Below are positions 49,847-51,460 of a stretch of 64,000 nucleotides of DNA, piece after piece. Both the position numbers and the translations under genes were made by a program. The notes below the pieces were generated by a model. That model saw only the letters and a program-made list of their open reading frames with translations. It searched no databases and was not told the origin of the DNA. Position 1 is the first letter of the stretch. Each line of letters opens with the position of its first letter. The stretch lies in the NCBI RefSeq assembly GCF_055900595.2, contig NZ_CM148325.1; one strand, 5' to 3'.

Positions 49847-50227
49847 ATGATTCGCACGATGCTGCAGGGCAAACTCCACCGCGTGAAAGTGACTCATGCG
49901 GACCTGCACTATGAAGGTTCTTGCGCCATTGACCAGGATTTTCTTGACGCAGCCGGTATTCTCGAAAACGAAGCCATTGATATCTGGAATGTCACCAACG
50001 GCAAGCGTTTCTCCACCTATGCCATCGCAGCAGAACGCGGTTCGAGAATTATTTCTGTTAACGGTGCGGCAGCCCACTGCGCCAGCGTCGGCGATATTGT
50101 CATCATCGCCAGCTTCGTCACCATGCCGGATGAAGAAGCTCGCACCTGGCGGCCCAACGTTGCCTACTTTGAAGGCGACAACGAAATGAAACGTACCGCG
50201 AAAGCGATTCCAGTTCAGGTGGCCTGA
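49847..50227 (+). CDS. panD: aspartate 1-decarboxylase
   Basis: 126-aa [36 protein letters not shown] (self-cleaving G-S site). Confidence 0.92.
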
Positions 50228-50230
50228 TAA

Positions 50231-51460
50231 TCACCCCTGCGGCTGGTTACTCACCAGCCGCGACATCGTCTCCAGCGAATCCGTTCTCAAGATATAAAGT
50301 CGTTTTAACAATAACGGATTATCCCCAGGTTTAACTTTGCCTTTCATGGTGGTCACTGCCAGATGAAATCCGGCTTCACGTGCCGCCTTCACCGCTTTGT
50401 CATTAAAACCGCCAAACGGATAAGAAAGATACAAGACATGTGGATTAAACTGCGCCAGCGCCCGACGCGATCGCGCAAAATCAAACAGAATATTGTGCTC
50501 ACTACGGCTCAGTAATATGGGGCGGCGATAGCCATCTACCCGATGCAAAAAATGAGTATGTGACTGGAAATCAAATACATCACGAATTTCGTTAAGCTCA
50601 GAAATGCTCATAAATTGCAGCGATTTTGGATCCCATTTCTGCGGGTGACGTTTGATGCGCGAGGTAACAATAAATGCCGTCGCCTTCATACCATAGTGTT
50701 TCAACACAGGATACGCATAGCGGCTAACCGACTTGAGACCATCATCAAAGGTAATCACCACGGCACGTGCCGGGAGATTAATTTTATTCTGCACGTAACC
50801 TTCCAACTGTGTCATGCTCAGTGTCGCGTACCCCCTGTCGCGCAGCCAGGCCATCTGGTTATTGAAGGCACGTACCGAGGTGGTCGTCGAAGTATGGCGA
50901 AAACGGGTGTTTTCTTCGTCGCGCAGAATATGATGATAGGTTAGCACCGGCAGGCCATTGTCGGGTTGGGCATCCAGCGCGCTGATATAGGCCAGTCGAT
51001 CGCCAATACGGACCTGATACCAGGTTTGGTTTAACCTGTCTTTCAGTTTATGCAAAATCGGATAACGCAAATTGTCCGCCAGTACCCCAAATGGCGCACT
51101 GCCCACACTCGGCGCGTTATAAACCGGCGTATCTTTCCAGGTAATTAAGTTCTGATTACTCAGCGGCTTGTTGAGGTCACCCAAACCGTCTTCAACTTTT
51201 TGTCGCCCCTGAACCGGCTCGAGATGACCTTTATCGATAAACCCTTTGCCAAAGCCAAAATTAAATGCGTAATAACTTGCGGCAGTGGGCTCCACGGCAA
51301 TGATTTGTCCGGCCCGAATATTCCCCACCGTCACCATTTTGTCGCCAATTTGCGCCCAGACCGCAGCATTTTCGATGGTTTGCATATAACGGGCAGGTAA
51401 TGCGGCACTGACGCTTGTGGTAAACAGCATCAGCAGGAGAATAACAGCTTGTTTATACAT
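50231..51460 (-). CDS. yadE: polysaccharide deacetylase family protein, secreted
   Basis: 409-aa ORF, signal peptide [19 protein letters not shown]; NodB-like deacetylase region. Confidence 0.8.

What the first reader, a model, noticed from the sequence alone, without database searches (positions are those of the whole stretch)
50225..50233. panD and yadE converge with only 3 bp between stop codons
The two genes end tail-to-tail (TGA-TAA-TCA), leaving no space for separate terminators. Transcripts must overlap in antisense or terminate within the partner gene, which could give reciprocal transcriptional interference between pantothenate synthesis and the deacetylase gene.
Basis: seen in the sequence. 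Interest (0 to 1): 0.2.

Follow-up and report, generated by a model that had tools for sequence, protein, structure and literature searches.

The report
panD mRNA ends inside yadE
The two E. coli genes do end tail-to-tail 3 bp apart, but this tight packing is common, the antisense overlap is already published, and panD's transcript simply ends at a conserved stem-loop inside the last ten codons of yadE.

Summary
panD (49847-50227, +) and yadE (50231-51460, -) end as TGA-TAA-TCA, and RefSeq annotates K-12 the same way. It is not unusual: 10 of 28 convergent pairs in 200 kb of MG1655 overlap or lie 8 bp or less apart.

The antisense overlap is already documented:
- Term-seq (Adams 2021) puts the main panD 3' end 39 nt past its stop, inside yadE.
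- A bicyclomycin-sensitive (Rho) region lies about 0.5 kb further on.
- ExcludonFinder (2025) lists yadE-panD as a convergent excludon.

New here: the 3' end sits 5 nt after a perfect 9-bp stem-loop (50239-50261) with no U tract. The stem is kept in 61 Enterobacteriaceae species while the stop-to-stop gap drifts from 1 to 6 bp.
- Compensatory changes and G-U wobbles fit the panD strand only.
- The last 17 or so yadE codons have the lowest synonymous diversity in the gene.
- Two genomes that lost yadE keep a stem-loop there.

Most likely this is a Rho-type protective 3' stem-loop for panD written into yadE codons. Reciprocal regulatory interference is untested. The finding is ordinary and already known.

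The parts
49847..50227 (+). panD CDS (aspartate 1-decarboxylase), stop TGA at 50225-50227
   Evidence: ORF list; Pfam PF02261 E 7.5e-47; RefSeq annotation
50228..50230 (.). 3-bp spacer TAA. It is an in-frame second stop for panD in this allele only; K-12 has TTG.
50231..51460 (-). yadE CDS (NodB-type polysaccharide deacetylase family, function unknown), stop at 50231-50233
   Evidence: Pfam PF01522 residues 228-366; RefSeq; function unknown per PMC12440217
50239..50261 (+). Stem-loop 1, GCGGCTGGT-TACTC-ACCAGCCGC. Perfect 9 bp, -16.6 kcal/mol, no U tract. It starts 12 nt after the panD stop and lies in yadE codons S400-Q408.
   Evidence: Single copy in the window. In 59 distinct sequences, 98.5% of cells pair on the + strand and 93.8% on the - strand; 3 pairs show double changes. 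A stem-loop is kept in the yadE-less loci L016 (identical arms) and L042 (similar GC-rich arms).
50266..50266 (+). Position equivalent to the dominant panD mRNA 3' end mapped in MG1655 (146275, - strand): stop + 39 nt, or stem + 5 nt
   Evidence: PMC7815308 Suppl. file 1. Coordinates transferred through; the stop-to-stem spacing is identical in the window and K-12. Mapped in K-12, not in this strain.
50234..50287 (+). Block of suppressed synonymous variation in yadE codons 392-409. It covers stem-loop 1 and the C-rich tract after it (GACATCGTCTCCAGCGAATCCGT).
   Evidence: normalised synonymous entropy 0.33-0.39 against a gene-wide 0.69 +/- 0.10. The 11 lowest of 401 windows all lie in codons 391-409. 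Rare or minor codons are near-fixed: Arg CGG 57/58, Ser TCG 50/53. The last 60 nt are about 98% identical across E. coli, against about 94% for the 2-kb locus.
50278..50320 (+). Candidate stem 2: 50278-50283 pairs with 50315-50320 around a variable loop. Role unknown.
   Evidence: (I5). The + strand is 98.1% paired (20 G-U, 7 mismatches); the - strand is 92.8% paired (1 G-U, 26 mismatches). RNAalifold predicts it on the + strand only. There are no double compensatory changes, so support is weaker than for stem 1.
50267..50743 (+). Stretch antisense to yadE in which Rho stops panD-strand transcription. The published peak, MG1655 145798(-), corresponds to about window 50743. Resolution is about +/-800 nt.
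   Evidence: PMC7815308 Suppl. file 2: Rho score 7.2, p 8e-27, downstream reads 27 rising to 373 with bicyclomycin. C/G ratio is 1.3-1.67 for about 150 nt after the panD stop, near the 90th percentile of the window.

Best explanation
This is an ordinary, tightly packed convergent gene pair. The 3' end-forming element of panD has been written into the last codons of yadE. RNA polymerase transcribing panD passes the stop codon and enters yadE on the antisense strand. A GC-rich 9-bp stem-loop forms 12-34 nt past the stop, and the stable panD mRNA ends 5 nt after it. The stem has no U tract, the sequence after it is C-rich, and panD-strand transcription across yadE rises sharply when Rho is inhibited. 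The most likely sequence of events is therefore that Rho terminates readthrough somewhere in the next few hundred bases inside yadE, and 3'-to-5' exonucleases then trim back to the stem-loop, which protects the mRNA. Shown: the 3' end position (published, in K-12); the Rho-sensitive region (published, low resolution); conservation, covariation, strand bias and synonymous constraint of the stem (this work). Inferred: the order of termination and trimming, and that the same holds in this strain. yadE has no comparable element in panD, and its 3' end is unmapped. The steady-state overlap is short (about 36 nt of yadE CDS), and any interference is probably asymmetric (panD onto yadE) and limited by Rho.
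For: The Term-seq 3' end is at 146275(-), classed 'primary panD / antisense yadE', in all three conditions. The Rho region at 145798(-) has score 7.2 (coordinates). The stem-loop is at 50239-50261, -16.6 kcal/mol, with only 3 T in the next 10 nt, and the terminator scan did not call it. In the 47 species with a 1-6 bp gap the yadE-embedded stem follows panD directly. Where the gap is 32 bp or more, a separate stem-loop lies between the stops and the embedded stem stays in the yadE codons. On the + strand 32 one-sided changes are G-U and 8 are mismatches; on the - strand 7 are G-U and 33 are mismatches. Pair 16/24 shows AU 22, GU 21, GC 16 and no A-C. The yadE 3' end has the strongest synonymous constraint in the gene, while the panD 3' end has none. 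L016 and L042 lost yadE; L016 keeps the same stem arms and L042 a similar GC-rich stem directly after panD. The 17 other yadE-less species have a different hairpin there, often U-flanked. C/G is 1.3-1.67 downstream. This matches the class described by Dar and Sorek 2018: Rho-dependent 3' ends, including ones inside downstream coding regions, lie just after stable stem-loops with low U content followed by C-over-G enrichment (PMC6061677).
Against: The Rho score comes from 800-nt windows, so it does not prove that the 146275 end derives from Rho-terminated transcripts. Antisense promoters inside yadE could contribute to the bicyclomycin-induced signal. No data from pnp or rnb mutants were available for this site. 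The YadE C-terminus is highly conserved as protein, which confounds nucleotide conservation. The double compensatory changes trace to few independent events, and the shuffle control is known to be optimistic for related sequences. All transcript data are from K-12, whose locus is only about 94% identical to this window, although the stem is identical.
Confidence: 0.68

Rival explanations
1. The stem-loop is a factor-independent or collision-assisted bidirectional terminator. Converging polymerases from panD and yadE stall at the hairpin and are released by head-on plus trailing collisions, giving a precise end without a U tract.
For: Wang et al. (bioRxiv 10.1101/2022.10.23.513370) show that convergent E. 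coli pairs can terminate by programmed RNAP collisions that need a nascent stem-loop. The stem is a near-perfect palindrome and folds on both strands. The genes are convergent with no spacer.
Against: yadE is transcribed at about 25 RPM/kb against about 335 for panD, so most panD polymerases would meet no partner. On the yadE strand the stem lies inside translated codons. Wobble and mismatch asymmetry favours the panD strand only. Bicyclomycin raises downstream signal about 14-fold. L016 and L042 keep a stem after panD although yadE is gone and a different gene follows.
Confidence: 0.12
2. The pair is a functional excludon. Overlapping transcription, or RNase III cleavage of the duplex, makes panD and yadE expression mutually exclusive.
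For: The pair is listed as a convergent excludon found in at least 50% of 58 RNA-seq samples. The yadE antisense/sense ratio of 0.35 is higher than in neighbouring genes. p19-captured dsRNA reads for yadE are 32-283 RPM. The adjacency is conserved across many genera.
Against: ExcludonFinder calls overlap from coverage only, and the authors say convergent excludons could not be validated with p19. No p19 duplex hot spot was found at the junction in the text held for that table, which was cut when stored; the nearest listed are 145122 and 147944. Antisense levels change little in rnc mutants. Rho curtails the antisense run. The paper's claim that the two genes share a pathway is not backed by known function, since YadE is 'of unknown function'. 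yadE has been lost, or separated from panD by inserted DNA, many times without loss of panD.
Confidence: 0.15
3. The hairpin has no RNA function. It is a by-product of a conserved YadE C-terminal peptide and codon usage, and exonucleases simply stop at whatever structure happens to be there.
For: The peptide ...[12 protein letters not shown](V/I)SNQPQG is nearly invariant. Distant homologues share the region up to N405. Most stem positions are non-synonymous.
Against: Synonymous sites in the stem are near-fixed on rare or minor codons (Arg CGG 57/58, Ser TCG 50/53), while loop third positions and codons 383-391 vary freely. There are compensatory double-synonymous changes: Kluyvera CTG/CAG to TTA/CAA, and Kosakonia CGG/CCG to AGG/CCT. 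Stem arms persist after yadE deletion. Every one of the 81 species loci has a stable hairpin within 24 nt of the panD stop.
Confidence: 0.08

Closest known systems
3'-terminal protective stem-loops of Rho-dependent transcripts (Dar and Sorek 2018, PMC6061677)
   Same: There is a stable stem-loop with no U tract and no A tract. The precise steady-state 3' end lies a few nt after the stem. C exceeds G downstream. The element is located inside the coding region of the downstream gene, and a bicyclomycin-sensitive region follows it.
   Different: Dependence of this particular end on Rho, PNPase or RNase II was not tested. Whether panD is in their Rho-dependent set could not be checked, because their supplement is not held.
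Convergent excludons (ExcludonFinder, PMC12288877; concept from Listeria)
   Same: The genes are convergent and their transcripts overlap at the 3' ends. This exact pair is on the published E. coli list.
   Different: The defining functional property, mutually exclusive expression, is not shown for this pair. The stable overlap is short, about 36 nt of CDS.
Canonical intrinsic (Rho-independent) terminator
   Same: It has a GC-rich stem of typical size (9 bp, 5-nt loop, -16.6 kcal/mol) directly after a gene.
   Different: There is no U tract (GACAUCGUCU) and no upstream A tract. The consensus scan does not call it. By contrast, yadE-less relatives often do have U-flanked hairpins after panD.
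Overlapping bidirectional terminators of convergent genes (Ju et al. 2019; Wang et al. bioRxiv 2022)
   Same: A single palindromic stem is shared by a convergent pair that has no spacer.
   Different: The stem lies wholly inside one partner's translated region. The evolutionary signal is strand-specific. The expression of the two partners is very unequal.

Membership tests
Rho-dependent 3'-end protective stem-loop (Dar and Sorek class) | Steady-state RNA 3' end immediately downstream of an energetically stable stem-loop | tested here: met
   The published 3' end at 146275(-) is stem + 5 nt. Stem energy is -16.6 kcal/mol.
Rho-dependent 3'-end protective stem-loop (Dar and Sorek class) | No U-rich tract after the stem and no A tract before it; C over G downstream | tested here: met
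   3 T in the 10 nt after the stem. C/G is 1.3-1.67 over the next 150 nt or so, about the 90th percentile of the window.
Rho-dependent 3'-end protective stem-loop (Dar and Sorek class) | Readthrough past the site increases when Rho is inhibited | tested here: inconclusive
   A published Rho region lies 477 nt downstream with score 7.2, but it rests on 800-nt windows, so it is not site-specific.
Rho-dependent 3'-end protective stem-loop (Dar and Sorek class) | The end is generated or defined by 3'-5' exonucleases (PNPase, RNase II) stalling at the stem | not testable with these tools
   This needs Term-seq or 3' RACE in pnp and rnb mutants.
Convergent excludon | Transcripts of two convergent neighbours overlap | tested here: met
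   The Term-seq end lies inside yadE. The pair is on the ExcludonFinder list. Antisense reads cover both genes.
Convergent excludon | Expression of one gene lowers expression of the other (mutual exclusion) | not testable with these tools
   No pair-specific data are held. The authors could not validate convergent pairs with p19.
Intrinsic terminator | GC-rich hairpin followed directly by a U tract | tested here: not met
   The hairpin is present and the U tract is absent.
Bidirectional terminator of a convergent pair | Defined 3' ends for both convergent transcripts flanking one shared stem | tested here: not met
   Only the panD-strand end is in the Term-seq list; none is listed for yadE. 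On the yadE strand the stem lies upstream of the stop codon.
Repetitive extragenic palindrome or other repeat family | Multiple dispersed copies; match to a known repeat model | tested here: not met
   Single copy in the 64-kb window. No Rfam match at the junction.

The most novel reading that the evidence does not exclude
The first 90 nt or so after the panD stop, with two conserved + strand stems embedded in the last 30 yadE codons, may be a dedicated cis-regulatory 3' module. It would set panD mRNA stability, or yield a 3'-derived small RNA, and would gate Rho-limited antisense transcription that tunes yadE. It may also have shaped the protein: the Enterobacteriaceae-specific YadE tail QPQG would be the translated arm of the hairpin.
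Probability: 0.12. Interest if true: 0.4.

Novelty: already known. Interest (0 to 1): 0.12.

Why it matters
It matters little as a discovery. The gene arrangement is in every E. coli annotation, the panD 3' end inside yadE is in a 2021 Term-seq table, and the pair is on a 2025 excludon list. The modest added value is a clean, conserved example of a sequence under two constraints at once: protein coding on one strand and an mRNA 3'-end stem-loop on the other. The signatures include strand-specific wobble, rare codons held fixed, and survival of the stem after the host gene is deleted. This is a practical caution for recoding or deleting yadE, because synonymous or deletion edits near its 3' end could alter panD (beta-alanine and pantothenate) expression.

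Tried and rejected
1. The consensus terminator scan of 48400-52100 found nothing above chance. It gave 5 hits against 3.9 expected and missed the real stem. A weak - strand candidate at 50208-50195 inside panD is not supported by any synonymous constraint.
2. An Rfam E-value search of 48300-51700 found no RNA family at the junction.
3. I looked for a yadE terminator in the panD 3' end through synonymous-site conservation. None was found: 0.57-0.74 against a gene mean of 0.61.
4. Supplements of Dar and Sorek 2018, Choe 2022 and ExcludonFinder are not held. Ju 2019 and Lybecker 2014 are not held either. So no second 3'-end data set and no pair-specific excludon metrics were available.
5. No p19 dsRNA duplex hot spot was found at the junction in the text held for Table S3, which was cut when stored.
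6. The first homologue search listed only close relatives. The representative search was needed to see the distant C-termini.
7. I first thought the whole YadE tail might be a translated terminator. I rejected this in part: homologues at 33-50% identity align up to about N405, so only QPQG is lineage-specific.
8. The first literature search by word start was swamped by 'pandemic' hits.

Full report
**Observation**

The window reads GTG GCC TGA TAA TCA CCC at 50219-50236. panD is 49847..50227 on the + strand and yadE is 50231..51460 on the - strand. Pfam confirms both as Asp_decarbox and Polysacc_deac_1.

The window is E. coli. A 2-kb query around the site matches 5424 of 5426 complete genomes, and RefSeq annotates the same 3-bp gap in K-12. 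The allele is unusual: most genomes are only 90-95% identical over the 2 kb, and K-12 has TGA-TTG-TTA rather than TGA-TAA-TCA.

**Is it unusual?**

No. In four 50-kb pieces of MG1655 I counted 28 convergent pairs:

| Spacing | Pairs |
|---|---|
| Overlap (-4, -4, -4, -35, -38, -41) | 7 |
| 3 bp (yadE/panD, tcyP/ydjO) | 2 |
| 8 bp | 1 |
| More than 8 bp | 18 |

So about a third of convergent pairs leave no room for an intergenic terminator.

**What is already published**

- Only one paper in the library names both genes. ExcludonFinder (PMC12288877) lists yadE-panD, and next to it rpnC-panC, among 165 convergent excludons of MG1655 called from RNA-seq coverage.
- Adams et al. 2021 (PMC7815308) list a dominant Term-seq 3' end at 146275(-), classed 'primary: panD; antisense: yadE', in all three growth conditions. 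With panD at 146314..146694, this end is 39 nt past the stop and 36 nt inside the yadE CDS.
- The bicyclomycin experiment in the same paper reports a Rho termination region at 145798(-), antisense to yadE. The Rho score is 7.2, and downstream reads rise from 27 to 373.
- Huang et al. 2020 (PMC7373196) give wild-type sense/antisense reads of 31.1/10.9 RPM for yadE and 127.6/5.3 RPM for panD.

**Anatomy found here**

A perfect 9-bp stem with a 5-nt loop, GCGGCTGGT-TACTC-ACCAGCCGC, starts 12 nt after the panD stop at 50239-50261. Its folding energy is -16.6 kcal/mol, and only 3 T occur in the following 10 nt. The published 3' end lies 5 nt after this stem, at a position equivalent to window 50266. 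The stem occupies yadE codons S400 to Q408 (...[11 protein letters not shown]).

**Comparative evidence**

I fetched panD loci from 80 Enterobacteriaceae species.

- 61 species have yadE convergent behind panD. The gap is 1-6 bp in 47, 32-35 bp in 8, 61 bp in 1 and over 800 bp in 5. It is never an overlap.
- The spacer therefore drifts freely, but the stem is kept in the yadE codons of every yadE-bearing species.
- On the panD strand, 98.5% of pair cells are standard pairs, with 32 G-U cells and 8 mismatches. On the yadE strand the figure is 93.8%, with 7 G-U cells and 33 mismatches.
- Three pairs show changes on both sides. Pair 16/24 has AU 22, GU 21, GC 16 and never A-C. This links a Val/Ile first codon position to the Asn third position.
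- Kluyvera changed Leu CTG and Gln CAG to TTA and CAA together. Kosakonia changed Arg CGG and Pro CCG to AGG and CCT together.
- The wobble asymmetry points to an RNA that folds on the panD strand.

**Synonymous constraint**

I measured codon entropy among sequences that share the consensus residue, in 9-codon windows.

- The 11 lowest of 401 windows in yadE all fall in codons 391-409, at 0.33-0.45 against 0.69 +/- 0.10 for the gene.
- Rare or minor codons are near-fixed there: Arg401 CGG in 57 of 58, Ser400 TCG in 50 of 53.
- Loop third positions and codons 383-391 vary freely.
- The panD 3' end shows no such dip, at 0.57-0.74 against a mean of 0.61. There is thus no sign of a yadE terminator hidden in panD.
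- Within E. coli, the last 60 nt of yadE are about 98% identical in nearly all genomes, against about 94% for the 2-kb locus.

**Loss of yadE**

In 19 species yadE is absent behind panD. Two of them, L016 (a Pluralibacter MAG) and L042 (Intestinirhabdus), keep yadI, yadH and yadG and still have a stem-loop directly after panD. L016 keeps the same arms (gcggctgg...ccagccgc), and L042 has a similar GC-rich stem (GCGGCCGATGG/CCATCGGCCGC). The other 17 have a different hairpin there, often flanked by A and U runs like an intrinsic terminator. Every one of the 81 species loci examined has a stable hairpin within 24 nt of the panD stop.

**A second candidate stem**

Positions 50278-50283 can pair with 50315-50320. 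The panD strand is 98.1% paired and the yadE strand 92.8%. It is one of only three such conserved 6-bp stems in the first 420 nt. It shows no double compensatory changes, and its role is unknown.

**Mechanism**

The combination seen here matches the class described by Dar and Sorek 2018. In that class, Rho-dependent transcripts, including ones that end inside downstream coding regions, have precise 3' ends just after protective stem-loops. The matching features are:

- a stable stem with no U tract;
- a precise 3' end a few nt after the stem;
- C over G downstream, with C/G of 1.3-1.67 for about 150 nt, near the 90th percentile of the window;
- a Rho-sensitive region further on.

I therefore favour this sequence: Rho terminates panD readthrough inside antisense yadE, and exonucleases trim back to the stem. 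The order of these steps is inferred, and the Rho data have only 800-nt resolution. Collision-assisted termination is a rival. It fits poorly with the 13-fold lower yadE transcription per kb and with the strand-specific evolutionary signal.

**Regulatory interference**

This is untested. The excludon call rests on coverage alone, and the authors could not validate convergent pairs with p19. No p19 duplex hot spot was found at the junction in the held text of Table S3, which was cut when stored. Antisense levels barely change in rnc mutants. The paper's statement that the two genes act in one pathway is not backed by known function, because YadE is still 'of unknown function'.

**Origin of the YadE tail**

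Homologues at 33-50% identity mostly end at or within a few residues of the position aligned to N405. The four extra residues QPQG in Enterobacteriaceae are encoded by the stem arm nearest panD. Their codons (CAG, CCG) are the complements of the Leu and Arg codons in the other arm. This suggests that the hairpin shaped the tail, but it remains an inference.

**Verdict**

The new detail is a well-supported dual-use sequence of a known kind.

Noticed in passing
window 48436-48559 (+), panC-rpnC spacer: An ERIC (IRU) repeat element. The ERIC2 primer sequence AAGTAAGTGACTGGGGTGAGCG matches exactly, and the reverse complement of ERIC1R lies just before it (primer sequences recalled from memory). 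Rfam gives only a sub-threshold hit to V_AS5 (49.8 bits, E 3.8e-9). The spacer is 220 bp here against 73 bp in K-12.
   Followed up: partly
window 49694-50233 (-); proteins P0002, P0003, P0005-P0007: The yadE reading frame stays open antisense through the whole of panD. Natural stop-loss variants of yadE (588-591 aa; one cluster has 39 members) therefore read about 180 extra codons across panD. A single stop codon is all that keeps the two CDSs apart.
   Followed up: partly
L003 (NZ_OZ392440.1 plasmid) 5843-6813; 61 plasmid matches: Some E. coli plasmids carry a second panD. The one examined (L003) also has about 180 bp of the yadE 3' end (stem-loop included, yadE stop mutated to TCA) and an rpn fragment, next to IS elements and other metabolic genes.
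   Followed up: partly
L016 3379-3440 and L042 3379-3440: Two genomes have lost yadE but still have a stem-loop directly after panD, with yadI, yadH and yadG still downstream. L016 keeps the same arms; L042 has a similar GC-rich stem.
   Followed up: yes
L031, L032, L041, L044, L047, L054, L061, L069 (panD stop +3 to +35): Kluyvera, Klebsiella pneumoniae and a few others have a 32-35 bp spacer holding an extra GC-rich hairpin (-17 to -26 kcal/mol) between the stops, in addition to the yadE-embedded stem. Most Raoultella loci have 0.8-2.5 kb inserted there, with a U-flanked hairpin after panD.
   Followed up: partly
window 50278-50283 with 50315-50320 (+): A second conserved pairing on the panD strand sits downstream of the mapped 3' end, flanking a variable loop. 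Codons D380-P382 and R392-S395 of yadE show fixed third positions, including the rare Arg AGA in 43 of 57 sequences.
   Followed up: partly
window 48433-49573; MG1655 147624(-): The neighbouring convergent pair panC/rpnC is also on the excludon list. It has an even stronger published Rho termination region antisense to rpnC (yadD), with score 16.9.
   Followed up: no
window 49600-51600: This panD-yadE allele is rare. Only 11 of 5482 records are at least 99% identical, and most E. coli, including K-12, are 90-95% identical. YadE protein identity among Escherichia species representatives drops to 85%, while PanD stays at 98-100%.
   Followed up: no
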